Shown here one piece after another: positions 1 through 56,722 of a stretch of DNA of 64,000 bases. The stretch is from Pristiophorus japonicus (taxonomy: Eukaryota). Position numbers and translations under genes: made by a program. Each line of letters starts with the position of its first letter. Position 1 is the stretch's first letter. The notes under the pieces were generated by a model that made no database searches, had not been told where the DNA came from, and saw nothing but the letters and a program-made list of their open reading frames with translations. Location of the stretch: the NCBI RefSeq assembly GCF_044704955.1, contig NC_091993.1, positions 117,428,001-117,492,000 of the forward strand. The letters are read 5' to 3'.

Positions 1-1835
1 TCTCTCCATCCCTCCCTCTCTCTCCGCTCCCTCTCCTCTCACACCCCCATCTCTCTCACTCTTCCCCCCCACCTGCTCGCTCTCTCTTCCCCCCATCTCC
101 CCTCTCTCTCCCCCCTCTCCTCTCTCTCTCTCTACCCCTCTCCTCTCTCCACCCCAGTCTCTCTCTCTTACCTGTCCATCTCTCTCCACCCACCCCCAGT
201 CTGCTCTTTCTCCCCCAGTCTGTCTCTCTCCACTCCCACCCCCCAACCTCCCGTCTCACTCTCCTCCCACCCCTGTCTCTCTGTCCCACCCCTCCCATCT
301 CTCTGGCCCTCCCCTCCTCTCTCTCTCTCCGAGTGTGTCCACCCTATCTCTGGCCCCCCCCTCCCGTCTCTCGCTCCCTCTTCCTCCAGACCCCCGTCTC
401 TCCTCCCCCATCTCTCTCTCCCCACCTTGTCTCTCTCTTCTCCCCCCCCCACACCTGTCTCTCTCTCCCCCCCACACCTGTCTCTCTCCCCCCCCACACC
501 TGTCTCTATCTCTTCCCCCCGCGACCCCACGTCTCTCTCTCACTCTCCCCTCATGTCTCTCTCTCTCTCCCCCTCTCATCTTTCTCTCCCCACCTCACAA
601 CTCTCTCCCCTCTCCTCCCTCCATCTCCCCCTTCTCCGCTCACTCTCCTCCATCTCTCTCCCCAGTCTCTAACTCTCTCTCTCTCCCAATCTCTCTCTCT
701 CTCACCCCAGTCTCTCTCGCTCTCCTGCAGTCTCTCTTTCTCTTCCCCCATCTTTCTCTCTCTCTCCCCCATCTCTCTCTCTCTCTCCCCGTGTCTCTCC
801 CTCTCTCTCCACCCCGTCTCTCTCCCTTCCCCATCTCCCTCTTCCCCATATCTCTCTCTCTCTTAGCACCCCCTCTCTCCCCACGTGTTTCTCTCGCACC
901 CGTGATCTCTCTCTCTCTTGCTCTTCCCACCCCGTCTCCCCCCTCTCTCCCTGCCCAGTCTCTCTCTCCCCCACCCTCTTCTCTCTCTCCTCCCCTCTCC
1001 TGCCTCCCCTGCAGTCTCTCTCTCTCTTGCCCACCTGTCTCTGCCCCCCGCCCCTCTCTCTCTCTTACCCTTCTGTCACTTTACCCCCTTCTCTCACACA
1101 CTACCCCCTCTCTCACCGACTCCCCCTCCCGTCTCTCTCTTCCCCTCTCATCGCTCACTCCCCACCTCCCATCTCATGCTCTCCCTCCCCCGTCCATCAC
1201 TCTTTCTTTCATTCCCGCCACTGTCTCTCTCCCCCCAGTCTCTCCCTCTCTCCCTCACCTCCGTCTCTCTCTTACTCTTCCCCCATCTTTCTCTCCCATC
1301 CCGTCTCTCTCTCTCTCTCCCCCCAGCTGTCTGTCTCCCTCTTTCCTCCCCCAGTCTCTCTCTCTCCCGTCTCTCTCTGTCCCCCACCCCTCTACTTCAT
1401 CTCTTTCTGCCCCCCCTCATCTCTCTCTCCCTCATAACTCTCCACCCCCATGTCTCTCTCCACCCCCTTTCTCTCTCTCTTCCCCTCCCCATCTCTCTCT
1501 TCCTCATCCCGTCTCTCTCTCTCACCCGTCACACTCTCTCTTCCCCCTCCACCATCTCTCTCTCTCTCCCCTCTAGTTTATTTCACCCCCCTCCCCAGCT
1601 CCCCCTTCCCCTTGTCTCTCTCTCCCCCCGCACCTGTCTGTCTCTCTCTCTCTCCCCGTCTCACTCTCTTCCCTCCACCGCCCCCACCCGCCACTGTCTC
1701 TCTCTCTTTCATCTGTCTTTCTCCCCCTCCTCTGTCTCTCTCTCCCCGTCTCTCTCTCTCTCAACACCCAAATCTTTCTCTCTCTCTCTCTCTCTCGCTC
1801 GCCCCCCAGTATCCCTCTCTCTCTCTCCCACTCCG
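1..1835. repeat. Polypyrimidine (C/T-rich) low-complexity tract, 3' part of intron 1 of receptor copy A
   Basis: The + strand is almost only C/T with degenerate (CT)n and C-runs. The long Ser/Leu/Pro and Arg/Glu/Gly ORFs here are composition artefacts. Confidence 0.95.
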
Positions 1836-1974
1836 ACGATGTTTTCTCTCACACCGAAGGCCGCAAAAATATTCCAAATAATGCAAAAGCGAGAAGCAAA
1901 TCCAGCTGCAGGCTCCAGCGGCAGAAAATGTTTCAGCAGTGATGAGCTCCACCGGGCTCATGGTTTGGCTCCCA

Positions 1975-2057
1975 GTGACTGTATTCAAAAGTAAATCATT
2001 GGCTGTGAAGCGCTTTGGCACATCCTGAGCATGTGATCAGACACTATATTAATGTTT
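1975..2057 (+). mobile_element. 3' tail fragment of L2-related SINE/LINE
   Basis: CAAAAGTAAATCATTGGCTGTGAAGCGCTTTGGCACATCCTGAG...CTATATTAATG resembles the L2-type SINE tail; the reverse complement of a similar tail is at ~33390-33470. Confidence 0.55.
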
Positions 2058-2200
2058 TCTTCCATCACAAACTAGAAGGAATTCACCTGTATCAATAGAT
2101 GTAGTGGAGATGTAGTACAGAGTGGTAACTCTTATTCAATCGTAACTGTTTGTATTAAGCAGTTATTTCCTGTTCAATTTCTGAAATATTGTCTCCTCAG

Positions 2201-2524
2201 TTTCAGGTGCATTGTGGGCAAGTAATCTAGTAAGAGGAATTGTGGGAAGAGCGATCACCATAGAATGTCACTATGGCCAATCGTACTGGTCATTTGAGAA
2301 ATATTGGTGTCAGGGCTGGACTCCAATATGCTCAGTTGTAGTAACAACAAATGATCAACATGGATGGGGAGGAAGAGTGTCAATCACAGATAACCAGAGA
2401 GCAGGAATATTTGTTGTTACGATGAAGGACCTTCGCTCAGCAGATGCAGGATGGTACAGTTGTGGTATTACAGAATCAGGCGGCTTCGATACACGTTTCA
2501 ATATAGAGCTACAAATATCTCACG
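2201..2524 (+). CDS. Receptor copy A, V-set Ig exon (CD300/CMRF35/pIgR/TREM-like; MDIR-like)
   Basis: Acceptor gtctcctcAG at 2199-2200, donor CACG|gtacat at 2525, 324 nt, phase 1-1. Protein has ITIECHY...KYWCQGWTPIC...RVSITD...FVVTMKDLRSADAGWYSCG, i.e. the canonical B/F Cys pair plus the KYWC-x6-C second disulphide typical of CD300/pIgR V domains. Confidence 0.93.
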
Positions 2525-3149
2525 GTACATTTCTCAGCGATGTGCTTTATTACTCTCTACTGAACTGTCTGATCAATGTTGTATCTGGGAGGAAACATGA
2601 GAGCTCCGATATCCCGAGGCTCCGCAGCAGTGCAGAGTCTCACAGGTAGTGGGCAGAGGTGGGGAAATCCGACTCACGGTGCACACTCCCAATCCGTGGC
2701 CTGCCCAACTTCCCGATCAGGAATTTCAAGTATTATGGGACTAACAATTCCTTTAACTACAGGGTGTTGTGCCAGACATCACATGGGAGGCTCACCACAT
2801 GTCCCTGTCTCTGAGCTGTTTTAAATGTCCCACTGTCAGAGGTTTGCCTTCAGACTGAAACTAATAGTCAGACAATAACAAAAGCAGTGAGCAGCAAGTC
2901 GTTACTAATGGTATCAATTCCTTGACATTAATAAAAATACCTGCAATCCACAGAGTTTAACAGGTTTCCTGTTTTCCTGATATGATGGGTGGCTCACATT
3001 ATCAATGAGATATTTGGTCAACTTTACAAACAATATAAAATAAAATTGAAAAGCTGGTCACTGTTTTGATTGTAAAAGAAGCCTCTTTATTAAATGTTGA
3101 GACATTATCTTCCTCCCCAGCATAACCTCCTGATGGATCAACTATTAGA

Positions 3150-5452
3150 TGCAATGGTCCGGATATTAACTTCGAGACATGTTCGGTACAGGGGATCCAG
3201 TATCGCGTAGGAAATCCGGAAGTAATTTCAGTCTGTCTGTGGCATTTTAACGCAGCCGGCCCATTATAATTTACTCCCGGGTTTGGCGTTGCATGCGCGG
3301 TAATGGGAGTGCTGCGGGCACGCATGATGCGATCTTAACTGAAGTATTTAAAGGACCAATGCAAAGATGGAATTCTAGGAGTTGGGCGGTTGGGAACAGA
3401 GACGGCAATTGTAGAAGATAGACTCAGGACGCTCAAAGCCCGCGCCCCACTTTAACAACGACTCCCTTGACGTACTAAAGGGGGCAGTGAGGAGTCGGGG
3501 AGAGATACTCTTCCCCAGAACCGAGAGGAAGAAACCTACAAAGGAGCCATGCCTGGATGTGACTGAAGATGTCAGCAGCAGGAGCATTATACCACACTCC
3601 TGGAGTCAGCACAGGTAGCTCTTTAATCACCTAACCCGGTTAGGAAAGGTGAGTATAGCTGCTCCTTCTACCTGTTGTGCATATCACCCATCCCCTCAGC
3701 CTGTCTTTTCAAGTCTACTCCATCATATCACTCCCCACACCCACTTACCTTGCGTGCACACCCATCCTTCTCTTTCTAAGCACTTCCTCACATCCCCGTC
3801 TCTCCATCACCACTGCCACTCGCCCGAATCCTTATACAATTTCATACCTCTCACTGATCATCACCCTCATCACATGCACTGCATCCATCAGGTGAACACA
3901 TGCCAATACCGTCACTCAAAGGTCTGTTATTCCTTCCCAGGGTGCACCATCACAGGACTCATGCTTACCATGCACCAATGCAGATACTCACACTTCGGTG
4001 GGTCCAGTTAGACAGATAGTTGTGTTTTTACCTGGAGACTCACACTTCACAAGTGAGCAAGAACAGAGAGTGGTGGCAGGGACTGCATCGGAGGGTACAG
4101 CACTCTCCAAACCATGTTCAGCTGGACACAGGTTCTGTACCCCGGGGGCTGTTGATGAAAAGGATAATCATTGAGGGGCAGCAGATAAGGCCTCCCACGC
4201 ACACTGTCTACAATTGCAGAGGAGTCTACCTCAAGCATGAGTGGGTTGATGTCACAGGACATTGCGAGGATGTCTTCTTCCATGGATAGAATGGCCAACT
4301 CTGGAACATCAGTCGTGACAATCAAATGAGTCCATGCAAGCCTTGACCACAGCCATAGATATCTGGCACCTTAAATAGGATGGCAGACACCTTAGCCTTG
4401 TCCTTACAGCACATCACTGATCTGCTCAACAGCAGAGAGGTAGGAGTGAAGTGCGATTGGGCCTTCAGAGGGATGATGGTGAAAGGCGATATGGAAGTGG
4501 GGACTCCAATCAAAGTGCTCCCACTTCTCCACCACTGTCCCACCCCACCCCTCAGTCAGTACCCGACATGCTGCCTCCTCTCCCAATGGCTGAGTCTGCC
4601 ACTGCACAGGTGCAGGTGAAGCAGTCTTTGGCAGGGCCCTCGTGGGCTCCAAACAGAGGACGGCGACCACTCAGCAGTCAGAGCAGAGAGCTGAGCAGCC
4701 TATCTTTACCTCTGCGTAAGTCATAAATATTGCACCACATAGGAGCGTTAAGAAAAGTGTAAAGTTTTGTAGTTGCACAAGCCTATGCACATGTGTGTTT
4801 GAGAAATTGCTATGCTGTTAAGTAATGGTCCTTGAGCAGAACCACATAAAATATTTAACTTTGCACCACTTTAACTTGTTGCCCCTTATTGGCTGCTGGA
4901 TTGCAACTGGTCTTTTCAGTTGCTCGTTAATGAATGGGAAGACGTGAATTGATGGGGAGATGAGCAATGGTGGTTGGTGGGTAGCAGGTCTGCTTTGTGT
5001 CAGTGGGATTGGTGCAGGGGTGGGGGCGTTGGGTGGGGTGGAGGTGGGGGTGGGGAGTTGGGAACAGCCATTGGATGTGGTTGTTACATCAGCCCAGTGG
5101 TGGTAACTGACTGAACCTTACAGCTATAAAGGAAACACTGGCATCGCGGGCAGCAATTTGAGTGACTGGTGCTGCGTTAGGGTCGCAATCTCTTCCTCCT
5201 CTTCCTGCTCCTTTTCCTCTTATCTTCCTCCTCCTTTTCCTCTTATCTTCCTCCTCTGTCTCGGAATGGTCCGCAGACAACGTGTGCTCAGCTCCTTGTT
5301 CCTCCTGCAGCTCCAATCTCGCTGCTGCGCAGTGTTGTGCAGAGCGCAGTAAACCACCATCATTCTGTAGGCCCAGGCTGGTGAGCACTGAAGGGCGCCT
5401 CCAGATCTGTCCAGGCAACTTGAGGGTGATGTCAGGAAACACTTCTTCCCAC
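3150..5452. mobile_element. Degenerate PIF/Harbinger transposon (Myb/SANT-like gene on +, 3' end of transposase on -)
   Basis: The + strand 3425-3648 reads RAPHFNNDSLDVLKGAVRSRGEILFP...VSSRSIIPHSWSQHR*LFNHLTRLGK followed by a gtgagt donor. The - strand 5100-5450 reads CLDRSGGALQCSP...VYCALHN plus an acidic tail, a HARBI-like C-terminus. Boundaries approximate. Confidence 0.7.
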
Positions 5453-5454
5453 AA

Positions 5455-5672
5455 AGGGTAGTGGAACTATCGAAATCTCTACCCCAGAAATCTGTTGATG
5501 CTGGGGGTCAATTGAAAATTGCAAAACTGTCATTGGCCAATTTGCTTAGGCAAAGGTACTCAGGGTTATGGAACCAAGGCCGGTAGATGGAGATAAGATA
5601 TAGATCAGCCAAGATTTAATTGAATGGCGGATCAGGCCCAAGGGGCTGAAACGCTTACGCCTTTTTCTATGT
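5455..5672 (+). mobile_element. CR1 LINE 3'-end fragment
   Basis: TTCCCACAAAGGGTAGTGGAA...GATCAGCC...GAATGGCGG...TTTCTATGTTC matches the 3' ends of the other CR1 copies in the window. Confidence 0.7.
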
Positions 5673-6124
5673 TCAGGACCTCCTGTTTATTTTTCAATGA
5701 ATCTGAGTGTGCGAATAGAAAAGTAATTAAACCCACAAAACATGTAACAGATATCTGCCAGTTTTTTGCCGTTGTATTCTGCTGTAGTTTTCAATCTCTC
5801 TATAACTAGTCCACATTCAAGAGTTAAACAATGAAATAACATTGGAGGCTGGCTACCTGCTACTGAGAGAAATTGTTAGCCCTGATTTTCACATTGACGC
5901 ATCCTCAGTATCATTGCTGCTGTCCCGATCTGGAGCCCTGCTATGTTCTGATATAATGGCAGACACGGTAGTTCAGTCTGCTGGGAGAATGGAGAGACAT
6001 GGAGAGGGAGATGTGAGATTCCAACATGGCAGGCCCTGGCTGAGATGCAGAAGTGCTGAAAATTGGAGAGTGTTTGATTTTTAAATGTTTAGTCAATATC
6101 TGAATGTTTGTTTCTTTCCCACAG

Positions 6125-6448
6125 AATCCGTGTCAGTTCCTGTACTTAGATATTTATCGCCACCAAATGTCTCATGTTCTGGGGGCTCAGTGTCAGCCTC
6201 CTGTGAGTCTGTCCAGGGATCCCTTCCCATTCAGTACACATGGTATGAACAGACCCCGATTAAAGGTTCAAAGATCTCCGACACCAATAAACTGGATCTA
6301 CATTGTCAATCCTTCAAACAGCAACATCATCAATATTACTGCACAGCCTCAAATAATCAGGGAGAGAAATCCAGTGAAATGGTCGATGTGTCAGTCTTCA
6401 ACAGAGCAGGGAAGCACTGCAGTTATGTGACACAAATCAGTGGCATTG
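6125..6448 (+). CDS. Receptor copy A, second Ig exon (C2/I-set, FCRL-like)
   Basis: Acceptor tttctttcccacAG, donor ATTG|gtaagt, 324 nt, phase 1-1. Protein ESVSVPVL...SASCESVQGSLPIQYTWY...YYCTASNNQG..SEMVDVSV. Confidence 0.92.
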
Positions 6449-6467
6449 GTAAGTGTTACTTTAAACA

Positions 6468-8810
6468 AACATAGAAACATAGAAAATAGGTGCAGGAGTA
6501 GGCCATTCGGCCTTTCGAGCCTGCACCGCCATTCAATGAGTTCATGGCTGAACATGCAACTTCAGTACCCCATTCCTGCTTTCTCGCCATACCCCTTGAT
6601 CCCCCTAGTAGTAAGGACCACATCTAACTCCTTTTTGAATATATTTGGTGAATTGGCCTCAACAACTTTCTGTGGTAGAGAATTCCACAGGTTCAACACT
6701 CTCTGGAGGAAGAAGTTTCTCCTCATCTCTGTCCTAAATGACTTACCCCTTATCCTTAGACTGTGACCCCTGGTTCAGGACTTCCCCAACATTGGGAACA
6801 TTCTTCCTTCATCTAACCTGCCTAAATCCGTCAGAATTTTAAACGTTTCTATGAAATCCCCTCTCATTCTTCTGAACGTCAGTGAATACAAGCCCAGTTG
6901 ATCCAGTCTTTCTTGATATGTCAGTCCCGCCATCCCGGGAATCAGTTTGGTGAACCTTTGCTGCACTCCCTCAATAGCAAGAATGTCCTTCCTCAAGTTA
7001 GGAGACCAAAACTGTACACACTACTCCAGGTGTGGCCTCACCAAGGCCCTGTACAACTGTAGTAACACCTCCCTGCCCCTGTACTCAAATCCCCTCGCTA
7101 TGAAGGCCCACATGCCATTTGCTTTCTTAACCGCATGCTGCACCTGCATGCCAACCTTCAATAACTGATGTACCATGACACCCAGGTCTCATTGCACCTC
7201 CCGTTTTCCTAATCTGTCACCATTCAGATAATAGTCTGTCTCTCTGTTTTTACCACCAAAGTAGATAACCTCACATTTATCCACATTATACTTCATCTGC
7301 CATGCATTTGCCCACTCACCTAACCCATCCAAATCACTCTGCAGCCTCATAGCATCCTCCTCGCAGCTCACACTGCCACCCAACTTAGTGTCATCCGCAA
7401 ATTTGGAGATACTACATTTAATCCCCTCGTCTAAATCATTAATGTACAATGTACACAGCTGGGGCCCCAGCACAGAACCTTGCGGTACCCCACTAGTCAC
7501 TGCCTGCCATTCTGAAAAGTAACCATTTACTCCTACTCTTTGCTTTCTGTCTGCCACCAGTTCTCAATTCACATCAGCACACTACCCCCAATCCCATGTG
7601 CTTTAACTTTGCACATTAATCTCTTGTGTGGGACCTGGTCGAAAGCCTTCTGAAAGTCCAAATACATCACATCAACTGGTTCTTCCTTGTCCACTCTACT
7701 GGAAACATCCTCAAAAAATTCCAGAAGATTTATCAAGCATGATTTCCCTTTCACAAATCCATGCTGACTTGGACGTATCATGTCACCTCTTTCCAAATGC
7801 GCAGCTATGACATCCTTAATAATTGATTCCATCATTTTACCCACTACTGATGTCAGGCTGACTGGTCTATAATTCCCTGCTTTCTCTCTCCCTCCTTTTT
7901 TAAAAAGTGGGGTTACATTGGCTACCCTCCACTCCATAGGAACTGATCCAGAGTCAATGGAATGTTGGAAAATGACTGTCAATACATCGGCTATTTCCAA
8001 GGCCATCTCCTTAAGTACTCTGGGATGCAGACCATCAGGCCCTGGGGATTTATCGGCCTTCAATCCCATCAATTTCCCCAACACAATTTCCCGACTAATA
8101 AGGATTTCCCTCAGTTCCTCCTTCTTACTAGACCCTCTGACCCCTTTTATATCCGGAAGATTGTTTGTGCCCTCCTTAGTGAATACCGAACCAAAGTACT
8201 TGTTCAATTAGTCTGCCATTTCTTTGTTCCCCGTTATGACTTCCCCTGATTCTGACTGCAGGGGACCTATGTTTGTCTTTGCTAACCTTTTTCTCTTTAC
8301 ATATCTATAGAAGCTTTTGCAGTACGTTTTAATGTTCCCTGCACGCTTCCTCTCGTACTCTATTTTCCCTGCCCTAATCAAACCCTTTGTCCTCCTCTGC
8401 TGAGTTCTAAATTTCTCCCAGTCCCTGGGTTCGTTGCTATTTCTGGCCAATTTGTATGCCACTTCCTTGGCTTTAATACTATCCCTGATTTCCCTTAATA
8501 GCCACGGTTGAGCCACCTTCCCTTTTTTATTTTTACGCCAGACAGGGATGTACAATTGTTGTAGTTCATCCATGCGGTCTCTAAATGTCTGCCATTGCCC
8601 ATCCACCGTCAACCCCTTAAGTATCATTCGCCAATCTATCCTAGCCAATTCACGCCTCATACCTTCAAAGTTACCCTTCTTTAAGTTCTGGATCATGGTC
8701 TCTGAATTAACTGTTTCATTCTCCATCCTAATGCAGAATTCCACCATATTATGGTCACTCTTCCCCAAGGGGAACGAGATTGCTAATTAATCCTCTCTCA
8801 TTACACAATA
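6468..8810 (-). mobile_element. 5'-truncated CR1 (HER1-like) LINE, ORF2 RT region, disrupted
   Basis: KSPGPDG, YRPVSLTS, YLDFQKAFD, GVPQGSVLGP and KFADDTK motifs; (AGAAACAT)n tail starts ~20 nt after the exon donor. Confidence 0.95.
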
Positions 8811-9034
8811 TGGTTAATGAATTTTTTAAATGAGTATCGATCCAAACTGGTCACTGGTTAAATGCCTTCAGTCACTGAGCGACTTCAAGTGGCCAAATTC
8901 AATCCATTTGGATCGCTCAATAGTTAAAAACAGAATTATTCAGTCACCATAACACCATGTCCCTGGTTCTGAATTAAGGAGGACTTAAGTTAATTTAAAT
9001 GTATTGGTTTAATTTTTCGCAGAGTGGGCACATG

Positions 9035-9775
9035 AAAACTTAAGAAATAGGAGTAGGAGTAGGCCATATGGCCCCTCGAGCCTGCTCCGCCATTCAATAA
9101 GATCATGGACTCAGGTCCACTTCCCTGCCCACTCCCCATGACCCCTTATCCCCTTATCATTAAAGAAACTGTCTATTTCTGTCTTAAATTTATTCAATTT
9201 CCCAGCTTCCACAGCTATCTGAGGCAGCGAATTCCACAGATTTACAACCCTCAAAGAAGAAATTTCTCCTCATCTCTGTTTTAAATGGGCGGCCTCTTAT
9301 TCTAAGATCATGCCCTCTAGTTCTAGTCTCCCCCATCAGTGGAAACATCCTCTCTGCATCCACCTTGTCAAGCCCCCTCATAATCTTATATGTTTCGATA
9401 AGATCACCTCTCTTTCTTTTGAATTCCAGTGAGTAGAGGCCCAACCTACTCAACCTTTCCTCATAAGTCAACCCCCTCATCCCCGAAATCAACCTCGTGA
9501 ACCTTCTCTGAACTGCATCCAAAATAAGTATATCCTTTTCGTAAATATGGAAACCAAAACTGCACGCAGTATTCCAGGTGTGGCCTTACCAATACCTTGT
9601 ATAGCTGTAACAAGACATCCCTACTTTTATACACCATCCCCTTTGCAATAAAGGCCAAGATACCATTGGCTTTCCTGATCACTTGCTGTACCTGCATACT
9701 AACCGTTTGTGTTTCATGCACAAGTACCCCCAGGTCCTGCTGTACTGCTGCACTTTGCAATCTTTCTCCATTTCG
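9035..9775 (-). mobile_element. CR1 LINE 3' fragment (second subfamily)
   Basis: ORFs 9190-9760 give VRPHLEYCVQFW and RRFTRLI...RGDLIETYK, followed by the CR1 3' hairpin and tail. Confidence 0.9.
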
Positions 9776-9939
9776 GAGGATAGAAGCAATATGTTCGCAA
9801 TATGTTCACCAGTGGCTGCGCTGAGAAACATCAAAATGGTCAGAAAACAAAGAGAAATGCATTTCCTCCTAAGCAGCAATAAATATAAATGAACATATGC
9901 AAATATTGACTCTGGCCATATGCTCGTGGATTCACTTGC

Positions 9940-12900
9940 AGAGATAATGTTTCAGGTCGATGACCCTTTGTCAGAACTGGAAAAGATTAAAGATCTAACA
10001 GGTATTTGAGCAAGTATAGGGGCAGTGAAAGGGGGAGGGGAGGAAAGAACAAAAGGTAAGGTCTGTGATAGGGTGGAAGGCAGGAGAGATTAAGAAAGAA
10101 AAGGGATGATGGTGCAATGCAAAAGGAGTTGGCAATGAGCATTCTGTGGGGAGAGGGTGAACAGCCAGAGGCCATGGTCCATATCGGTACCAATGACAGG
10201 TAGAAAGAAGGATGAAGTCATGCAGGCAGATTTCAGAGAGCAAGCAGAGAGGTTAAAAAGCAGGACCCCAAAGATAGTAATCGGCGGATTACTACCGGTG
10301 CCACGTGCTAGTGAGTAAAGAAATCGGAGGATAGAGCAGATGATTGCGTGGCTGGAGAGATGGTGCACCAGGGAGGGCTTTAGGTTCCTGATCCATTGGG
10401 ACCGTTTCCGGGGGAGGTGGGACCTGTACACCTCAATAGAACCGGGACCAATATCCTCGCGGGGGGGAGCGGGCGGTGGTATATTGCCAGTGCTGTTGGG
10501 AAGGAGTTAATCTAGATTGGCGGGGGATGGGAAGCTGGGAATAAATTCAGAAGGAAGAGAAGCAAAGCTGGAATTGGAAAGCAGAAAAGTAGAAAGTTAA
10601 TTTGGAAGGCAGAGGAAACAATGGCTAGAAAATAGACAACAAGGGAGTTTGGTAGTGCTAAATGGTATATATTTCAATGCAAGGAGTCTGGGGAATAAGG
10701 CAGATGAGCTGAGAGCACAGATAGACACTTGGGAGTAGGATGTTATAGCTATTTCTGAGACATGGCTGAAAGAAGCGAAGGTATGGCAGCTCAACATTCC
10801 TAGTTACAGGGTTTTCAGATGGGATAGAGAGGGGGATAAAGAGGATGGGGGCGTGGCAGTATTGATTAAAGAAACAATTACACCTGTGAGGAACGATGAT
10901 ATGTTAGCAGGATTATCAAATGAGGCTATGTGGGTTAAATTGAACAACAAAAAAGTGGCGCTCACACTGCTGGGAGTGTACTATTGACCCACAGTCAGAG
11001 GATGATCGAAGAGCAAACATGCAGGCAGATTTCTGAGTATTGCAAAAACTATAGGGCTGCAATAGTAGGGGATTTCAACTGCCCTAATATTAACTGGGAT
11101 AACATTAGTGTGAAAGTTATACAGGGTGCGGAATTCCTAAAATGCATTCAGGGGACCTTTTTTAGCCAGTATGTAGCAAGCCCAACAAGGGAGGGGGCGG
11201 TTTTGGACTTAGTTTTAGGGAATGAAGCCTGCAGATAGAAGGTGTATCAATGGAAGAGTATTTTGGTGCTAGTGATCATAATTCAGATAGATTTAGGGTA
11301 GTTATGGAAAAGGACAAGATAGACCAGGAATAAAAGTGCTCAATTGGGGAAAAGCCAATTTTGTTATGTTGAGATGGTATTTAGCCAAAGTAGACTGGGA
11401 ACAGCTATTTGAAGGTAAATCAGTGTCAGAGCAGTGGGAGACATTCAAGGAGGAGATCCTGAATGTTCAGAGCAAGTATGTTCCCTTCAAGAAAAAAGGT
11501 GGGACTAATCTGGAGCCTCCTGGGTGTCATGGGGCATACAGGGTAGGAGAAAGGAAAAAAAGGGAGGCATGTGACAGATACCAAGGACTCAAAACTTCAG
11601 AAACTCTAGAGAAGTATAGTAAGTGCAGGGGTGAAATTAAAAAGGAAATTAGGAAAGCAAAGAGAGAGAATGAAAACATTTTGGCAAGTAAATTCAAGGA
11701 AAACCCAAATATTTTTCATAAATACATTAACAGCAAGAGGATAACTAAAGAAAAAGTAGGGCCCATTAGAAACAAAAAGGTAATCTGTGTGTGGAGTCAG
11801 ATGTGTGTAGGGTTCTTAATGAATACTTTGCATCTGTTTTCACAAAAGAAAGAGGTGATGCAGACATTGCAATGAGGGAGAAGGAACATGAAATATTGGA
11901 TGAAATAAACATAGAGAGAGAGGAAGTATTAAGGGGTTTAGCAGCTTTGAAAGTGGATAAGTCCCCAGGCCCGGATGAAATGTGTGCCAGGCTGTTGAGA
12001 AGCAAAAGAGGAAATAGCAGAGGCTTTGACCATCATTTTCCAAACCTCTCTGGCAACAGGTGTGGTGCCTGATGACTGGAGGACTGCTAATGTTGTACCT
12101 CTGTTTAAAAAAAGGAGAAAGGGATAGACTGAGTAATTACAGGCCAGTCAGCTGAACCTCCGTGGTGGCAAAATTATTGGAAAAAATGGTGTGGGACAGG
12201 ATAAATCTTCATTTAGAAACACACAGATTAATCAAGGACAGGCAGCATGGATGTTTTAAGGGAAGGTCGTGTCTGACTAACTTGATTGCATTTTTTGAGG
12301 AGGTAACAAGGAGGTTCGATGAGGGTAGCACGTTTGATGTAGTGTCTATGGATTTTAGCAAGGCTTTTGATAAGTTCCCACATGGCAGACTGGTTACAAA
12401 ATTAAAAGCCCATGGGACCAAGGCAAAGTGGCAAGTTGGATCCAAAATTGGCACAGAGGCAGGAAGCAAAGGGTAATGGTTGGTGGGTGGTTTTGTGACT
12501 GGAAGGCTGTTTCCAGTGGATTTCCACAGGGCTCAGTACTAGGTCCCTTGCTTTTTGTAGTATATATCAATGATTTAGACTTGAATGTAGAGTGTATGAT
12601 TAAGAAGTTTGCAGATGATACAAAAATTGGCTGTGGGGTTGATAATGAAGAAAGCTGTAGACTGCAGGAAGATATCATTGAACTGGTGGACAGAACAGTG
12701 ACAAATGGAATTCAATCCGGAGAAGTGTGAGGCAATGCATTTCGGGAGGAGTAACAAGACAAGAGAATACACATTAAATGGTGGGACACTGAGAAGTGTA
12801 GAGGAACAAAGGGACCTTGGAGTGCAGGTCCACAGGTTCCTGAAAGTAGCAAGTTCGATAGATAAGGTGCGAAGAAGCCATTCGGAATACTTGCCTTCAT

Positions 12901-13745
12901 TAGCCGAGGCATAGAATACAAGAGTAGGGAGGTTATGCTTGAACTGTATAAAACACTAGTTAGGCCACAGCTAGAGTACTACGTGCAGTTCTGGTCACCA
13001 CATTACAGGAAAGATGTGATTGCACTGGACAGGGTACAGAAGAGATTTACGAGGATGTTGCCTGGACTGGAGAATTTTAGCTATGAGGAAAGATTGGATA
13101 GGCTGGGATTGTTTTCTTTGAGGATGAGAGGAGATCTTATTGAGGTGTATAAAATTATGACGGACCTACATAAAGTGGATAGGAAGGACCTATGTCCCTT
13201 AGCAGAGGGGTCACCAACCAGGGGGCATAGATTTAAAGTAATTGGTAGGACGTTTAGAGGGGAAATGTTTTCACACAGGATAGTGGGGGTTTGGAACTCA
13301 CTGCCTGAAAGGGTGGGAGAGGCAGAAACCCTCACCACATTTAAAAGATACTTGGGCGTATACTTCGAGCGCCGTAACCTACAGAGCCATGGACCGCAAG
13401 CTGGAAAATGGGATTAGGCTGGATAGTGGGATTAGGCTGGATAACTAGTTGTGGGCCAAAATGGCCTCCTCCTGTGCTGTAAATTTCTATGATTCTATTC
13501 TATGAATGGGTCAAGTTAAGAAACAAAAGATGAGTCTAGATAGGGTGTAAATGGAGATGGCAGAATCATCAACAGCTGCTGTGAGAAAGAGAAAAAACAT
13601 TAAAAAATAAAAAAATAGAGGCAGTTATTATAGTTTGAAATTGTTGAACTCGATGTTGAGTTCAGAAGGGTGTAAAGTGCCTAAACGAAATATGAGGTGC
13701 TATTCCTCGAGCTTGCCTTGAGATTCATTAGAACAGTGCAAGGGG
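9940..13745 (-). mobile_element. Penelope-like element relic, split into ~9940-10137 and ~13505-13745 by a CR1 insertion
   Basis: The - strand 13635-13720 translates KLEE*HLIFRLGTLHPSELNIEFNNF, the C-terminal GIY-YIG-region motif of fish/shark Penelope elements. Confidence 0.6.
10138..13503 (+). mobile_element. Degenerate CR1 LINE (3' part of ORF1 esterase + ORF2 EN/RT)
   Basis: HIGTND esterase motif, FNARSL/SETWL and GDFN endonuclease motifs, KFADDTK, and TTCTATGATTCTATTCTAT tail; many stops and frameshifts. Confidence 0.9.
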
Positions 13746-14018
13746 CCCTTTAACTGCCACAACAGTAACTCTGTACCACCAACTCTCAGATATGGAAAAG
13801 AAACGGAAATTATCGGTAAAAATGGGTCACAGCCCAGTGTCAGCAGCCTCTCCTTGCTACCGGAGAAGGGGAAATTACACAGAAATTTAATCATCCAAAA
13901 CCATTATATCAACCAGGCTTTTACATAAGTAACAAGGTTCCATTTGACAATCGTGCTCTCTTGGTTGACTACAAATGAAAATTAGGTGAATCTAAATATT
14001 ATTTTGTTGTTTCAATAG

Positions 14019-14139
14019 GACTTGAATATTCTTGTGAAGTTTTTTCAACTGTATCACCAACAACTGCACATTCGACAAGTACAAATGTTATTTCCACTGA
14101 TAATCAAAAACAATCTTCAGGATCCAAATCCACTAAAAG
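14019..14139 (+). CDS. Receptor copy A, Ser/Thr-rich stalk exon
   Basis: Acceptor ttttgttgtttcaatAG, donor AAAG|gtacaa, 121 nt, phase 1-2. Open frame GLEYSCEVFSTVSPTTAHSTSTNVISTDNQKQSSGSKSTK joins the C2 and TM exons in frame. Confidence 0.82.
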
Positions 14140-14639
14140 GTACAATGTTCTCATTGTTGATGTTTTGACTGGCATTGCCTCCATCTGAGAGATTAAATAT
14201 TCTTTAATAGTTTTGGCATAAGGGTTGATAATCATTTATTATTTTGGAATGTTGCTCATCAGAATGGAAATGGTGGCTGGGTTTACATCATGCTGATGTG
14301 TTAGCTTCCTAATGAAAGTGCTGCCTTTGTTGGTAGGAAATAAGCACCTCCATTTTGCTGCCCCTCAGATGGTGCTCTTTGCATTATTCACTATGATTAC
14401 TTCACCACTAACCTACTCTCATGGTTTGTGATGAGTTGCACTTATCAAACTTACCTTGCCGATATCTGTTCTGGTGTGGGGCTGACAGTAAAGTTTCTGT
14501 TGGTGAAAGTGAGCAATAGCAGCAATATATCTGCACCGCCCTTGATATCACCAGTGAGCAACATCTTACAGCTTTGGTCCAATTCTCAGTGTCGCTCACT
14601 ACAACTGCAGGAAGTTTCTTCTCTTAAAATGTATTATTG

Positions 14640-15250
14640 GGAGGTGGGCAATGCTGACAAGGTTACATTTATTGCCTGTCACGAGTTGCCCTGAGAAGGT
14701 GGCGCTGGGCCGCCTTCTTGATCTGCTGATCAATGGTGGTAAATAAGAAACTCCAGGATTTTGATCTAACAACAATGAAGAAACAGCAGTCTATTTCCAA
14801 GCCAGAACCGCGTGTAACTTAGAGGAGGTGGTGTTGGCATGAGGTTGCTTGCCTTGATGGTACAGACCACTGGGCTCAGTGGTGATTTTAAGTTAAGCTG
14901 GGCAAGTTGTTTTTAATAGATTATCAGGATGTGGGTATTGCTGCAGTGTGTCCTGTAGATGGTGCATACTGTAGTCACCGTGCGCCAGTGGTGGAGGGGA
15001 TGGATTTTGAGCTCAGCAGCAGGGGCACTGACCATATGCACTGCTTTGTCTTAAATAGTGGTGAACCTCAGTGTTATTACAGCTGCACCCATCCAAGGTG
15101 AGTACTCCATCACACTCCAGGCTTGAGCACTGCAGATGATGGAGAGGCTCGGAGTGATCAGGGGCTGAGCCACTCGTTGCAGAGTACCCAGCCTCTTCCC
15201 TGCAGTTGTAGCCACAATGTTGACGTGGCTGGTCCAGTTAAGCTTCTGGC
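14640..15250 (-). mobile_element. Old LINE fragment (family uncertain)
   Basis: CATTTATTGCC...TTGCCCTGAGAAGGTGG...GCCGCCTTCTTG resembles a common shark LINE 3' region; highly decayed. Confidence 0.45.
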
Positions 15251-15677
15251 CATTTTAATTCAGTGCTTGAAGGAGGTTTTCTCCAATTCATATTCTGTGG
15301 CAAATATTTCACCCAATGTATAGGAATGTAAATACTTTTCCCTCCTCTGCTTATCTAGTTTCCCCATAAATGCCTCTGTACTATTTGCTGCAACTACTCC
15401 CTGTGGTAGCAAGTTCCACGTTCTCACCACCTTACAGCCATATATTGTGCACATGTTAATGAAGTTTGCTTCATTTGATCTTTATCTAATGATCACAAAG
15501 TTGACTTTCCTTCATAAGGCAAACACTAGTTTACTTTCCCAGCTAACGTCCCTTGGCTCTGCAGCTTTACATTGATGCACTATACTAAGATTACAGTGTA
15601 ACCAGACGATAAATGTTTCAAACACACAGAAGACTCGTTTCCTTCGAATTATTTTATATTTCTTCCCTTTTGCTCAG

Positions 15678-15768
15678 TTACATTACATGGAACGTGGGAC
15701 GCTGGCTGCTCTTTGCTCTCCTGGTGATTTGTACTATTTCAGTCACAAGGTGTACGAGAAAATCTAAG
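15678..15768 (+). CDS. Receptor copy A, transmembrane exon with NxxR motif
   Basis: Acceptor tcttcccttttgctcAG, donor AAG|gtaggg, 91 nt, phase 2-0. Protein (S)YITWNVGRWLLFALLVICTISVTRCTRKSK: hydrophobic helix followed by basic stop-transfer residues. Confidence 0.88.
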
Positions 15769-15944
15769 GTAGGGATTAGGGACTTTATGTGAATCACTCC
15801 ATCAATTTGTTCAAAAATATTGATCGCAGATACTATAAAGAAAAACTTGCATTGATATAAACCCTTTCATATTTTCGACGTGACAAGCGCTTTATCTCTA
15901 ATTGGTGTCACTGGGGTAACTTACTAACTTCATAGTGTCGGCGA

Positions 15945-16860
15945 TAATTCTGAGGGGCAGATCCCCCTCCCGTTCCAGAGCATGAATTGTGCGCATGGGA
16001 GCAGGAAATTACATGAGGACATAGACAGACTAAATGAGTGGGCAAAGCTATGGCAAGTGACGTTCAACATGGGGGAGTGTGAGATCATCTCCTTTGGATC
16101 AGAGGAACACAAATTGGAATATATTCTCAATGATGAGAGACTAGAAGATGTGAAGGAGTAAAGAGATTTAGATGTCCATGTACACACGTCACTGAAAGCT
16201 AGGGCACAAGTGCAAAAAGTAATCAAAAAGGCTCATGGAAAGTTGGCCTTCATTTTATGGGGATTGGAATTCAAAATTGAAGAAGTGATGTTTCTGTTGT
16301 ACAGAGCCTTGGTCAGACCCCACCTGGAGTTCTGTGTTCAGTTTCGGGCGACGAACCTCAGGAAAGAAATACTGGCCTTGGAAGGAGTGTAGTGCAAATT
16401 CACCAGACTGATACTGGGGCTTAAAGTGTTCAATTATAAAGAGAGATTACGTAAACTTGGTTGTATTCCCTAGAGTTTAGAAGGTTGAGGGCTGAAAGAA
16501 TCAAAGAATTTAAAATTATTAAGGGATTCGATAGACTAGATAGGGAGAAATGACTTGCTTGGTGGGGGAATCCTCATAAGGGGGCATAATCTAAAAATTA
16601 GAGCTAAACCATTTAGGAGTAGAATTAGGAAGCACTTTTTCCCACAAAGGGTTGTGGGAACCTGGAACTGGTTGTGGATGCAGGGCCAATTGAAATTTTC
16701 ACAGCTGAGATCACTAGATATTTGTTGGGTAAGGACATCAAAGGGTATGGATCAAAGGCGGGTAAATGGAGTTGTGCTACTGATCAGCTGTGATCCAGTT
16801 ATACAGTGGAACAGGCTCAAAGGGTTGAATGGGCTGCTCCTGTTGCTTTGTTCCTATGTA
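15945..16860 (+). mobile_element. Old CR1 LINE 3' fragment
   Basis: LVRPHLEFCVQF and RGHNLKIRAKPF motifs with stops. Confidence 0.85.
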
Positions 16861-17406
16861 ACCCGCCCGTTATAGAATCCCCCGACTTTCATTCTATTGA
16901 TATAAAACAGTCGTTACAAGAAACGGAAGGGAAGAAATGGGAAAGGCTACAAGAAAGCACTTTGCTGTAGGGCACCAGAGACAATGGTTTTCACACAAGA
17001 ACACAGAGACAGTTAAACGTGTCCAGTCGAGCACCAAGGTGCTCAGACACAGACCCAATGCTATTGTTGCTGGGAACCTCGATTGGACTTTCGAAAATGT
17101 GTTTAACAAAGTAGACAAGTCAATCTTTTTCTGCTGTCAACTGTCCACCATCTAAGCTGCAGGAAAACATTTGTTGCATGTGAGTAAATGGTGTTACATG
17201 TATTCAAGAGGGGCCCAACTAGCACCTTTTCCCATCACATGTGCAATAGTGATAGGGGAGGGAGGACTGTGATCTCAACACAGCTCCAGTCCATCACGAG
17301 CTTCTCCTCCATTTGTTGTCAGTTCCAGAATTCTGTTCTGACATGTAAAACAATGCATCATTCTCAGAATCAATGAATTTGATGCCTTAAATATTTTCTT
17401 TTTCAG

Positions 17407-17454
17407 TTACTCAATGAATCGGCTCATCACAGCTTGACCAATGTGGTAAAGTGA
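17407..17454 (+). CDS. Receptor copy A, putative cytoplasmic (terminal) exon
   Basis: Acceptor atattttctttttcAG, phase 0, reads LLNESAHHSLTNVVK*. AATAAA at 17553-17558. A possible internal donor GTG|gtaaag at 17446 is discussed in findings. Confidence 0.6.
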   Translation, partial: LLNESAHHSLTNVVK

Positions 17455-40157: not shown

Positions 40158-40194
40158 ATGTGGATTCTGATTCTTCTCATGTGTTCCCGGCCCG
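40158..40194 (+). CDS. Receptor copy B, signal-peptide (leader) exon
   Basis: ACGATG start, MWILILLMCSRP, donor G|gtgagt, phase 1. Joins the V exon to give MWILILLMCSRPVSGA|LWANK. Confidence 0.85.
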
Positions 40195-41339: not shown

Positions 41340-44300
41340 CTCATTATTTTCTCTCTCTCCTCGCTCCCCCCCCCGCCCCACCACTATTCTCTCTCCCCAC
41401 GATGTCTCTCTCTCTCACTCTCCCTTCTCTCACTCTCCCCACTCTCCCTCCGTTCCCCACTATCTCTCGCTCTCTCACCCCTCCCCCACTCTCTCTCTCT
41501 CAACCCCACCCTTCTTCTCTTTCTCCCTTCCACCCTCTCCTCTTTCTCTCTCCTCCCCGTCTCTCTCTCTCCCCCTTAGTCTCTCTCTGTCTTCCCCTGT
41601 CTCTCGTTTGCCCTATCTCTCTGTCTCTGTCTCACCCGTCCCTCTCTCTCTCCCCCCCACCCCGTCTCTCTCCACCTCATCCCTCCCGCTTCTCGCTCTC
41701 TCTCCCCAGTCTCTCTCTCTCTCTCACTCTGCCATCCTCCCTCATCTCTCTCTCTCCCTCTCTCTCTCCCCTCCCTTCTTCACTCAGTCTCTGCCTCTCA
41801 TCTCTCTCTCCCCCTTCTCCACTCTCTCCCACCAGTCGCTCTCTTGCCCTGTCTCTCTCTTACCCCCATCTCATTCTCTCTTCGCCCCCCCCCCATCATT
41901 CGCTCTCTTCTCCCCCCATCTCTCTCTCTCTCACTAACCCGTCTCTCTCTCTCCCCGCCCTATTCTCCACCCCCGTATCTCTCTCTGTTTGCCCTCAATT
42001 TCTCTCTCCCCCCCCTTTCATCTCTCTGTCCGTCCCTCTCAATCTCGCTCCCCTGCCCCTCCTCTCTCTCTCCCCCTTCCTCCTCTCATCTCTCTTTCTG
42101 CCCAATCTCCCCCCTCCCTCTGCCTCTTTCTCTCTCTTCTCCCCCTCCTCTCTCACTCTCTCTCCCTCCCTCTACTGTCCCTGTTCCCCATTTCTCTGTC
42201 TCTCTCCCCCCCTCTCTCTCTCTTCCACCCCTCTCTTATCTCTCTCAGCCCATGGCTCTATCTCTCCCATCTCTCACCCCCCTTTTCTCTCTCCCCTCTC
42301 CTCTTTCTCTCACCACCCCCCCCCCAAGTCTTGCTCCTCCCAGTCTCTCTGTCCCTCCTTCCAGTCTCTCTCTTCCCCACCCCACCGTCTCTCTCTTTCA
42401 CCCCCCTTCTCCCTCTCTATCTTTCTCCCCCATCTTTCTCTCTTCCCCCCCATCTTTCTCTCTTCCCCATCTCTCTCTCCCCCCCATGTCTTTCTCTCTC
42501 TCTTACCCCCCCACTTTTCGCTTCCCCATCTCTCTCTTCCTCCCTGACTCTCTCTCTCTCTCTCTCACGCCACTCCACCCCCCCATCCCCCATCCCCTAG
42601 TCTCTCTCTCTTTCCCTGCTCCCAGTCTCTCTCTCCCCGCTCGCGTATCTCTCTCTTCCACACCCCCCTTTCCTTTTTCTCGACCCCCCCCTCTCTCCTC
42701 TCTCTCTCTTGCCCCTCCCCTCACGCCAACCCCCCACACCGGTCTCTCTCTCTCTGTGCCCCCAGTCTCTCTCTCCACGCTCGCATATCTCTCTCTCGGC
42801 CCCTTTCATTTTTCTCAACCACCCCCCCTCGCTCTTCCCCTACCCCCACTCCGCCCATCTCTCTCTCTCTCCTCCTTCCCTTCTCTCTCCCCCTTCCCTT
42901 CTCCCTCTCTCTCTCTCCCTCACCCCAGTCTCTCTCGTCCATGGGTTTCTCTCTTTCTTCTCCCCCGTCTCTTTCTTTCCCCCCATCTCTCTCTCTTCCC
43001 CCTCCCCCTGTCTCTCTCTCTCTCTTCCCCCGTCTCTCTCTCTCTCTTAGACCCCCGTCTCTCTCTCACTCGATCCCCCCCAGTCCCTCTCTCTCCCGTG
43101 TCTCTCTCTTCACCCCATCTTTCTCTCCCACCCGCCACCCCCCCGTCTTTCTCTTCCCCGCCCGCCGCCCCCCCGCCGGTCTCCCTCTCCCTCTGTCCCC
43201 AGTCTCTCTCTCCCTGCTCTCATATTTCTCTCTCCCTCCCTTTCATTTTACTCGACCCTCTCCCCCCGAAGTGTCTTGCTCCCCCCCAGTCTCTCTATCT
43301 CTCTTCCCCCCCATCTCCCTCTCCCCATCATCTCTTTGTCTCTCCCCCACATCTCTCTCTGTCTCTCTCCCCCTTCTCCTCTCTCTCTTCCCCATTTATC
43401 TATCTGTCCCCGCAGACTCTACCAACCCCTCATGTCTCTCTCCCCCAACACCCCCCCACTGAGGTGAATGATCAGCCATGATCTTATTGAATGGTGGTGC
43501 AGGCTCGAAGGGCCGAATGGCCTACTCCTGCACCTATTTTCTTTGTTTCTATGTTTCCACTCTCTTTCTCCGCCCCCCACCTCCCTCCCCCCACATCTCA
43601 CTGTCTCTGATCCGTGTGTCTCTGGCTCTTCCCGCTTCTCCACACTCTCTCCCCACATTCTCCTCTCTCCCCCCGTGTCTCTCTCTCTAACTTGCCTCCA
43701 TGTCTCTCTTCTCACCGTCTATCTCTTCCGCCCCCCCCGCCCCGTCTCTCTCTCAATTCCAACCCCCCGGAACTCTCTCTCTTCCCCCCTCCCCTGTCTA
43801 TCTCTATCTCATCCCCACCCAGTCTCTCTGTTCCCCGCCTGCCCTCGCTCACCCCCCGCTCTTTCTCTTCCCCCTCTCATCTCTCTCTCCACCCTCTCCC
43901 CCCGACTCCCTCTCTCTCTCTCTACCACTCCTTTCTCACTCTCTCTCCCTTCATCTACTCTTTCTGTCCACCCTGCTTCTCTGTCTCTCTCTCCCCCCTC
44001 CTCTCTCTCTCTCCCCCCCTCTCTTATTTCCCACCTCTCCCTTTGTGTGTCTCTCTCACCCTTCTCTCTCCCCCCTTTCCTCTTTCTCTCCCCTACCCAT
44101 ATCTTTCTCCACCATCTCTCTCTCTCTCTTCCCGTCTCTCTCTCCCCCTTGTCTCTCTCCCCTGTCTCTCTCTCTCTCACTCTCGCACCCCCCCGTGACT
44201 CCCTCTCTCTCCCCCTCTCCTATCTCTCTCCCCCTTTCTCTCTTGCCCCTCTCCTCTTTCTTTCTCCCCGCCACCCCGTGTCTTGCACCCCCCAATCTCT

Positions 44301-52455: not shown

Positions 52456-52779
52456 TTTCAGGTGCATTGTGGGCAAATAAACGAGTAAGAGGAATTGTGG
52501 GAAGAGCGATCACCATAGAATGTCACTATGACCAAAGGTACCGGTCACATGTGAAATATTGGTGTCAGGGCTGGACTCACCAATGCTCAGTTGTAGTAAC
52601 AACAAATGATCAACATGGATGGGGAAGAAGAGTGTCAATCACAGATAACCAGACAGCAGGAATATTTGTTGTTACGATGAAGGACCTTCGCTCAGCAGAT
52701 GCAGGATGGTACAGTTGTGGTATTACAGAATCAGGCAGCTTCGATAAACGTTTCAATATAGAGCTACAAATATCTCACG
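52456..52779 (+). CDS. Receptor copy B, V-set Ig exon (CD300/pIgR-like)
   Basis: Same splice sites as copy A (donor gtacgt), 324 nt, open. Protein ITIECHYDQRYRSHVKYWCQGWTHQC...DAGWYSCG. Confidence 0.93.
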
Positions 52780-56379: not shown

Positions 56380-56703
56380 AATCCGTGTCAGTTCCTGTAC
56401 TTAGATATTTATCGCCACCAAATGTCTCATGTTCTGGGGGCTCAGTGTCAGCCTCCTGTGAGTCTGTCCAGGGATCCCTTCCCATTCAGTACACATGGTA
56501 TGAACAGACCCCGATTAAAGGTTCAAAGATCTCCGACACCAATAAACTGGATCTACATTGTCAATCCTTCAAACAGCAACATCATCAATATTACTGCACA
56601 GCCTCAAATAATCAGGGAGAGAAATCCAGTGAAATGGTCGATGTGTCAGTCTTCAACAGAGCAGGGAAGCGCTGCAGTTATGTGACACAAATCAGCGGCA
56701 TTG
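56380..56703 (+). CDS. Receptor copy B, second Ig exon (C2/I-set, FCRL-like)
   Basis: Identical to 6125-6448 except CAC>CGC (H>R) and AGT>AGC (silent). Confidence 0.92.
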
Positions 56704-56722
56704 GTAAGTGTTACTTTAAACA

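What the first reader, a model, noticed from the sequence alone, without database searches (positions are those of the whole stretch)
2201..17454. Mosaic immune receptor: CD300/pIgR-type V + FCRL-like C2 + mucin stalk + LRC-type transmembrane segment
The exons join in frame (phases 1-1-1-2-0). With the 37-nt leader seen in copy B they give a ~314-aa type I membrane protein. The V domain has the CD300/pIgR/TREM KYWC-x6-C signature. The second domain has the VSxPVL...CES..GSLPI.Y.WY...YYC.A.N..G pattern I associate with FCRL-type C2 domains. In mammals these modules belong to separate families. Established: skate modular domain immune-type receptors (MDIRs) combine CD300/pIgR-like V domains with other Ig domains, so this may be an MDIR-related lineage. 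Inference: a candidate chondrichthyan Ig-binding or lipid-sensing receptor family.
Basis: partly seen in the sequence, partly recalled or inferred. Interest (0 to 1): 0.7.

Follow-up and report, generated by a model that had tools for sequence, protein, structure and literature searches.

The report
Shark MDIR activating-type immune receptor
This is an intact shark gene of the MDIR immune-receptor family already named in skates: one of several near-identical tandem copies that likely switch white cells on, beside twins that likely switch them off, and its outer domain is gathering amino-acid changes unusually fast, likely under pathogen pressure.

Summary
The gene is real. Five exons with AG/GT ends join in frame (phases 1-1-1-2-0) to 314 aa with a leader; copy A's own leader lies 19 kb before the window. 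The 'mosaic' is not new. It is the skate MDIR (modular domain immune-type receptor) design: V 59-61% and C2 64-65% identical to MDIR2/MDIR5, the same leader-V-C2-stalk layout as MDIR2, and an arginine transmembrane segment 67% identical to MDIR5. One-unit V-C2-Arg models are already in databases for other sharks. The gene is one of nine V-C2 genes in a 420-kb paired cluster: five Arg/short-tail, four with tyrosine inhibitory motifs (two broken). Copies B and C share an identical V exon with the inhibitory copy D. Copies A and B differ at 14 V codons, all amino-acid-changing, while flanking introns differ 0.15-1.9%: a local sign of diversifying selection. Likely function: an activating innate receptor that signals through a CD3zeta/FcRgamma-type adaptor (inferred). 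The FCRL and LRC likenesses are distant, not membership. This scan noted the same family before in other genomes and at a neighbouring gene of this one. New member of a known family; low interest.

The parts
2201..2524 (+). Copy A exon 2: end of signal peptide and CD300/pIgR-type V domain with four cysteines; the fast-evolving exon
6125..6448 (+). Copy A exon 3: MDIR-type C2 domain with extra family-specific cysteines
14019..14139 (+). Copy A exon 4: one cysteine and a Ser/Thr-rich stalk (17 of 39 residues)
15678..15768 (+). Copy A exon 5: MDIR5-type transmembrane segment with an N-terminal arginine
17407..17454 (+). Copy A exon 6: 15-residue tail without tyrosine, stop codon
17553..17558 (+). 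Candidate polyadenylation signal AATAAA of copy A
40158..40194 (+). Copy B exon 1: 37-nt leader, phase 1
52456..52779 (+). Copy B V exon; identical to the V exons of copies C (Arg type) and D (inhibitory type) beyond the window
56380..56703 (+). Copy B C2 exon (2 nt from copy A); its stalk, TM and tail exons follow just past the window end

Best explanation
Copy A is a stand-alone six-exon MDIR gene (MDIR2-type V-C2 ectodomain, MDIR5-type arginine transmembrane segment, short tail) in a tandem paired-receptor cluster, and it likely encodes an activating leukocyte receptor that would signal through an ITAM adaptor. Shown: exon structure, family membership, two tail types on near-identical ectodomains, excess of amino-acid changes in V. 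Inferred: (1) the V domain binds the ligand, held out by C2 and an O-glycosylated stalk; (2) the ligand is a variable microbial or lipid surface rather than antibody Fc; (3) the arginine pairs with the aspartate of a CD3zeta/FcRgamma-type dimer, as in LILRA/NKp46/OSCAR and Xenopus XFL; (4) activating copies arise by unequal crossover from, and counter exploitation of, inhibitory twins with the same V domain.
For: Per-exon identity to skate MDIR2/3/5: V 58-61%, C2 64-66%, TM 20 of 30 to MDIR5. MDIR2 (P0271) and an elephant-shark 'MDIR2' (P0265) have one V, one C2, stalk, TM and tyrosine motifs. One-unit Arg-type database models exist in other sharks (P0104, P0105, P0113, P0142, P0269). Nine V-C2 genes in C17:117.24-117.66 Mb, each with its own stalk and TM, eight with a leader found; five Arg/short tail, four tyrosine-motif tails. 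B, C and D have identical V exons and D has the inhibitory tail. A vs B: 18 nt in 14 codons, all 14 change the residue; pN 0.071, pS 0.007, Fisher p 0.017 uncorrected; 18 of 324 vs 17 of 1060 flanking intron bases, p 3e-4. Six closest copies: 22 of 22 variable V codons change the residue against 14 of 20 in C2. 12 of the 14 changes lie outside beta-strands of a homologue's model, 5 in the B-C (CDR1) segment. Arg is invariant in 54 of 54 such TM segments. NxxR-type segments associate with FcRgamma in Xenopus and mammals (PMC2413239, passages). The genome holds a CD3zeta-like TM exon with the aspartate. A contig of run X5 (RNA by guess, another organism code) joins V to the C2 acceptor.
Against: No ligand, adaptor or cell-type data were obtained. 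The Asn of NxxR is in only 5 of 54 segments, and the TM exon has no PDB sequence match at E 10. Akula 2014 found no FcRgamma in sharks (PMC4016189, passages) and only one zeta-family exon, closer to CD3zeta, was found here. I recall that the MDIR paper called MDIR5 free of signalling motifs (not readable here). In run X19 the V contig carries B/C/D-type letters at the 8 places checked, not copy A's. The selection test is significant in 4 of 28 non-independent pairs (all involve copy A, three are the same comparison) and is not corrected. The database model P0005 chains these exons into one 1283-aa protein.
Confidence: 0.75

Rival explanations
1. It is a shark antibody receptor (pIgR/FcamR/FCRL-like) that binds IgM, IgW or IgNAR Fc.
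For: Best PDB hits are pIgR for V and FCRL5 for C2. The cluster is on the same contig as C1orf116/SARG, a PFKFB gene and an IL10-family exon, the neighbours of human PIGR (gene order recalled).
Against: Those markers lie at 108.26-109.48 Mb, 7.5 Mb or more from the cluster. Single V domains of CD300lf score higher than any single pIgR domain (74 vs 42 bits). Rapid amino-acid change in V loops between 99%-identical copies fits a variable foreign ligand better than a self Fc. The 15-residue tail has no tyrosine for sorting.
Confidence: 0.1
2. The arginine is structural; the protein is a non-signalling decoy or adhesion receptor that competes with the inhibitory twins for ligand.
For: NxxR is not conserved as a whole (5 of 54). 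No separate FcRgamma exon was found, in line with PMC4016189.
Against: An invariant charged residue in the membrane across sharks and rays (54 of 54) always goes with a short tail lacking tyrosine motifs in single-gene models, the usual mark of adaptor coupling; a CD3zeta-like adaptor exon is present.
Confidence: 0.12
3. The V and C2 exons belong to one long multi-domain receptor that runs across the tandem units, as the database model P0005 has it.
For: P0005 contains copy A's V and C2 at 100% in a 1283-aa chain. All Ig exons are phase 1, and MDIR3/MDIR5 do carry repeated V-C2 units.
Against: Each unit has its own leader, intact stalk, TM, stop and polyA signal. P0005 itself runs through a TM, a tail and a second leader in mid-chain, a sign of merged models.
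Confidence: 0.06
4. Copy A is a silent or decaying duplicate, or the A/B/C repeat is partly an assembly of two haplotypes.
For: A, B and C differ by only about 0.3% between genes. X19 shows B/C/D-type V letters only. Two of nine cluster genes carry stops.
Against: Copy A has intact frame and splice sites. A neutral decay would not give 14 of 14 replacement codons in one exon with flanks at 0.15-1.9%. Three near-identical units plus D cannot be two haplotypes alone.
Confidence: 0.07

Closest known systems
Skate MDIR5 (Rostroraja eglanteria, P0078; family of Cannon et al. 2006, PMID 16738934, paper not readable here)
   Same: Leader, V (61%), C2 (64%), cysteine after C2, arginine TM (20 of 30), short tail without tyrosine.
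   Different: MDIR5 has two V-C2 units and almost no stalk; this gene has one unit and a 39-residue Ser/Thr stalk.
Skate MDIR2 (P0271) and elephant-shark 'MDIR2' (P0265)
   Same: Same leader-V-C2-stalk-TM layout; V 59% and C2 65% to skate MDIR2.
   Different: They have an uncharged TM and tyrosine motifs, like cluster genes g1 and D, not like copy A.
Mammalian CD300, pIgR/FCAMR/FCMR, TREM, NKp44 (V domains with a second disulfide)
   Same: V domain with four cysteines; homologue model fits CD300lf at 1.6 A over 110 residues; paired on/off organisation.
   Different: Extra C2 domain; N-terminal Arg rather than a mid-membrane Lys (recalled); no tested synteny with the CD300 neighbours.
Mammalian FCRL5 and Xenopus XFL receptors
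   Same: VSxPVL, CE..GSxPI.Y and YYC.A.N..G motifs; XFL also pairs NxxR-type and uncharged TM classes (PMC2413239).
   Different: FCRL/XFL have only C2 domains; the MDIR C2 has extra cysteines and scores far below family level against FCRL5 domains.
LRC activating receptors (LILRA2, PIR-A, NKp46, GPVI, OSCAR, FcalphaR)
   Same: Arginine at the N-terminal end of the TM, short tail; this copy reads N-x-x-R.
   Different: Unrelated ectodomain; Asn in only 5 of 54 family segments; adaptor binding not tested in any shark that I could find.

Membership tests
MDIR | CD300/pIgR-type N-terminal V (I-set) domain of MDIR subtype | tested here: met
   58-61% identity to skate MDIR2/3/5
MDIR | MDIR-type C2 domain | tested here: met
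   64-66% to MDIR2/3/5; clear gap to outsiders, 124 vs 54 bits
MDIR | Modular V-C2 ectodomain on a type I membrane protein | tested here: met
   Same layout as MDIR2
MDIR | One of the MDIR TM/tail classes | tested here: met
   TM 20 of 30 identical to MDIR5, E 7e-11
MDIR | Multigene family with activating-type and inhibitory-type forms | tested here: met
   Nine V-C2 genes, five Arg and four tyrosine-motif tails
MDIR | Expression in leukocytes or lymphoid tissue | not testable with these tools
   Runs are coded and kept as contigs; tissue unknown
CD300 | V domain with second disulfide | tested here: met
   Four cysteines in 28-29 of 29 family rows; CD300lf best single-domain hit
CD300 | Single-V ectodomain | tested here: not met
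   A C2 exon follows V in all nine genes
CD300 | Linkage to NHERF1/TTYH2 (human neighbours, recalled) | tested here: inconclusive
   NHERF and Tweety hits are on C15, C16 and two small contigs, none on C17; searches were floors
pIgR / FCAMR / FCMR | Position between the IL10 family and C1orf116 (recalled) | tested here: not met
   Markers at C17:108.26-109.48 Mb, cluster at 116.99-117.66 Mb: same contig, 7.5 Mb or more away
pIgR / FCAMR / FCMR | Binding of polymeric Ig | not testable with these tools
   Needs a binding assay
FCRL | Ectodomain of C2 domains only | tested here: not met
   N-terminal V domain
FCRL | C2 domain of FCRL subtype | tested here: inconclusive
   FCRL5 is the best PDB sequence hit, but a CD22/MAG-like protein scores higher on the family profile and fold matches are generic: CD22 Z 9.1, rmsd 2.5, 85 aligned; FCRLA Z 7.7, rmsd 2.4, 77 aligned
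LRC-type activating TM | Arginine at the N-terminal end of the TM | tested here: met
   54 of 54 family segments
LRC-type activating TM | Conserved NxxR motif | tested here: not met
   Present in this copy, but Asn in only 5 of 54 segments
LRC-type activating TM | Association with FcRgamma or CD3zeta | not testable with these tools
   Needs co-expression; a CD3zeta-like exon exists in the genome

The most novel reading that the evidence does not exclude
Arg-type MDIRs are the sharks' activating pattern receptors and signal through CD3zeta because sharks have no separate FcRgamma; copy A is an activating receptor caught in an arms race, its V loops remodelled at 14 sites away from the V shared with the inhibitory twin D; and the cluster preserves an ancestral vertebrate locus where CD300/pIgR-type V, FCRL-type C2 and LRC-type TM modules sat in one gene before they split into separate families.
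Probability: 0.15. Interest if true: 0.6.

Novelty: new member of a known kind. Interest (0 to 1): 0.24.

Why it matters
As a discovery it is ordinary: the family was named in 2006 and similar models are in databases. Its use is practical. The cluster gives a clean natural experiment (activating-type B/C and inhibitory-type D with one V domain; A differing only in V) for finding the MDIR ligand and adaptor, which I could not find reported. It also shows that the 1283-aa database model likely merges several genes, and that 'pIgR-like' or 'FCRL5' labels on shark proteins should not be read as antibody receptors.

Tried and rejected
Complex prediction of the TM exon with two copies of the CD3zeta-like exon: no verdict (score 0.13, mark 0.34, alignment not used, controls not folded); not used either way. 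Sequencing-run search: no RNA holder listed on record; no evidence on expression. Reads were laid only on 2050-6600, so the C2-stalk-TM-tail joints are untested by reads; absence of copy A letters in contigs is no proof of silence. Cannon 2006, Cannon 2010 and Flowers 2021 are not held; their text and supplements may already describe this layout, the MDIR5 arginine and the synteny. Paper searches found no paper on this cluster in this shark. A V-domain profile over 400 kb near the IL10-family exon and SARG (about a quarter of the 1.1 Mb between them, plus flanks) found no V exon (best E 0.84): inconclusive for a separate pIgR-like gene. A second zeta-family (FcRgamma) exon was not found (short query, few candidates): not proof of absence. 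Foldseek gave no match at E 0.001 for the C2 model, and FCRL5 is not among the 50 VIA rows: no evidence that folds differ. A gene-conversion donor for copy A's V was not seen among six other cluster V exons; most of its letters at the 18 places are private. An alternative inhibitory TM exon inside units A, B or C was not found. No leader was found for g2.
Full report
Observation. The five exons are at 2201-2524, 6125-6448, 14019-14139, 15678-15768 and 17407-17454, with AG acceptors and GT donors, and join without a stop; with a 37-nt leader the protein has 314 residues. The only leader in the window is copy B's at 40158, but copy A has its own at G000:C17:117409058. The window is C17:117428001-117492000 of a 5.9-Gb genome; its V and C2 domains match a database protein labelled Pristiophorus japonicus at 100%. 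V is a Pfam V-set domain nearest to pIgR, CD300, NKp44 and TREM2 in the PDB; domain 2 is nearest to FCRL5. The stalk is 17 of 39 Ser/Thr and a polyA signal follows the stop.

What it is. The C2 search returned 138 proteins; all 120 listed are from cartilaginous fish, and they include skate MDIR3 and MDIR5. A later search added MDIR2. Exon by exon, V is 58-61% and C2 64-66% identical to MDIR2/3/5; the TM exon is 20 of 30 identical to MDIR5 and unlike the others; stalk and tail give no significant local match. MDIR2 and an elephant-shark protein named MDIR2 have the same one-V, one-C2, stalk layout with an inhibitory tail. Five database models from other sharks have exactly V-C2-stalk-Arg TM. 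So every module and the layout are known within MDIRs; copy A is an MDIR2-type front on an MDIR5-type back. [quoted passage not shown]

The 'mosaic'. Against 1.8 billion representatives, close relatives cover the whole C2 at 46-81% identity and the rest fall to about 24-38%; of ten looked up, four were named mammalian FCRL5 and the others included CD22/MAG-like, CEACAM-like and bacterial Ig proteins. On a family profile, members score 124-198 bits, a lungfish CD22/MAG-like protein 54 and FCRL5-type domains at most 47. A confident model (pLDDT 90) matches generic C2 domains, CD22 first (Z 9.1, rmsd 2.5, 85 aligned), FCRLA lower (Z 7.7). FCRL-like is a fair description of motifs, not membership. 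The TM reads N-x-x-R, the motif that PMC2413239 (passages) ties to FcRgamma in LRC receptors and Xenopus XFL; among 164 family proteins examined, 54 segments in 52 proteins fit the pattern, all with Arg but only 5 with Asn.

The cluster. In 664 kb around the window there are nine V-C2 genes: g1, g2, g3 on the minus strand; g4, A, B, C, D, g9 on the plus strand. Five end in the Arg TM and short tail (g2, g4, A, B, C), four in an uncharged TM and tyrosine-motif tail (g1, g3, D, g9); g3 and g9 carry stops; no leader was found for g2. B, C and D have identical V exons, so two activating-type genes and one inhibitory-type gene share one ligand domain. More distant V genes extend the cluster to 116.99 Mb. 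Database model P0005 chains g4, A, B, C and D into one protein and runs through a TM, a tail and a leader, which I read as a merge. SARG, a PFKFB gene and an IL10-family exon are on the same contig but 7.5 Mb or more away; NHERF and Tweety hits are elsewhere. I recall that Flowers 2021 placed a shark cluster of such domains in synteny with human PIGR; I saw only its citation in PMC9716071.

Selection. A and B differ at 18 of 324 V bases, against 17 of 1060 adjacent intron bases (p 3e-4), 2 of 324 in C2, 11 of about 7560 in intron 3 and about 0.3% between genes. The 18 changes fall in 14 codons and all 14 change the residue (pN 0.071, pS 0.007, p 0.017 uncorrected). All 25 of 28 V pairs that differ have pN above pS, and all 28 C2 pairs have pN below pS, but only 4 V pairs reach p 0.05, all with copy A, and the pairs are not independent. 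In the six closest copies 22 of 22 variable V codons are replacements against 14 of 20 in C2. Twelve of the 14 A/B changes map outside strands of a homologue's model, five in the B-C segment. This is good local evidence for diversifying selection, short of a formal codon-model test.

Transcription. Contigs of four coded runs were laid on 2050-6600. One contig of X5 (RNA by guess, a different organism code) joins V to the C2 acceptor. X19 (kind unknown) has contigs that end at 2523 and begin at 6124, the exon edges, with C2 identical to the window and V carrying B/C/D-type letters at the 8 places checked. This supports the V-C2 joint in the family; it does not show that copy A is expressed, and the later joints were not tested by reads.

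Mechanism. Shown: structure, family, pairing, excess replacement in V. Inferred from paired receptors elsewhere: V binds a variable surface, C2 and stalk extend it, the arginine recruits an ITAM dimer, and activating copies are spun off from inhibitory twins by unequal crossover. The one zeta-family exon found is CD3zeta-like, and PMC4016189 (passages) reports no FcRgamma, pIgR or FCRL in sharks, so CD3zeta is a candidate adaptor. Lipid binding by CD300/TREM domains is recalled, not tested. Antibody binding, a silent decoy, a chained long receptor and a dead duplicate remain as rivals at 0.06-0.12 each.

Verdict. A real, intact gene; new member of the known MDIR family. Eight earlier notes of this scan reach the same family in other genomes and at gene g1 of this one; they are unchecked and I used them only as leads (MDIR2, the Asn check, the IL10 neighbourhood). 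Interest 0.24.

Noticed in passing
G000:C17:116.99-117.20 Mb: At least eight more distant four-cysteine-type V exons on the minus strand (29-44% to copy A for the seven scored), one gene with a related arginine TM (117184704) and one with a tyrosine-motif tail (117139562): a wider CD300-like cluster without MDIR C2 exons.
   Followed up: partly
G000:C17:117318967-117319290 and 117643535-117662017: Two inhibitory-type genes are broken: g3 has a stop in C2; g9 has stops in V and in the tail. All five Arg-type genes have open V, C2 and TM exons.
   Followed up: yes
P0005 (database protein, 1283 aa): Likely a merged model of genes g4, A, B, C and D; it runs through a TM, a tail and a second leader. 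Many other long shark models show the same pattern.
   Followed up: yes
L078:9210-9464 (+) and L080:9162-9467 (-): A G-alpha-i exon and a convergent transducin/gustducin-like exon about 100-120 kb right of the cluster; the latter has changes at conserved positions and may be a pseudogene. A GNAI3/GNAT2 pair would fit the linkage group that also carries pIgR and TREM in chicken (recalled, not tested).
   Followed up: partly
L061:1478-1581: The only zeta-family TM exon found in the genome; closer to CD3zeta (46 bits) than to FcRgamma (37 bits).
   Followed up: partly
window 9-13737 vs 50344-64000: Tandem duplication unit of about 50 kb, including shared LINE insertions and long CT-rich tracts in intron 1 (window 1-1830, 41350-44970, 49380-52090).
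   Followed up: partly
window 44968-49380: An LTR-retrotransposon-like insertion (about 185-nt terminal repeats at 44967-45150 and 49197-49380, 87% alike) in intron 1 of copy B.
   Followed up: no
C2 exon and start of stalk exon: The MDIR C2 domain has extra conserved cysteines (two of them in 29 of 29 and 28 of 29 rows) and a predicted extra strand after G, suggesting more disulfides than a plain C2 domain.
   Followed up: partly
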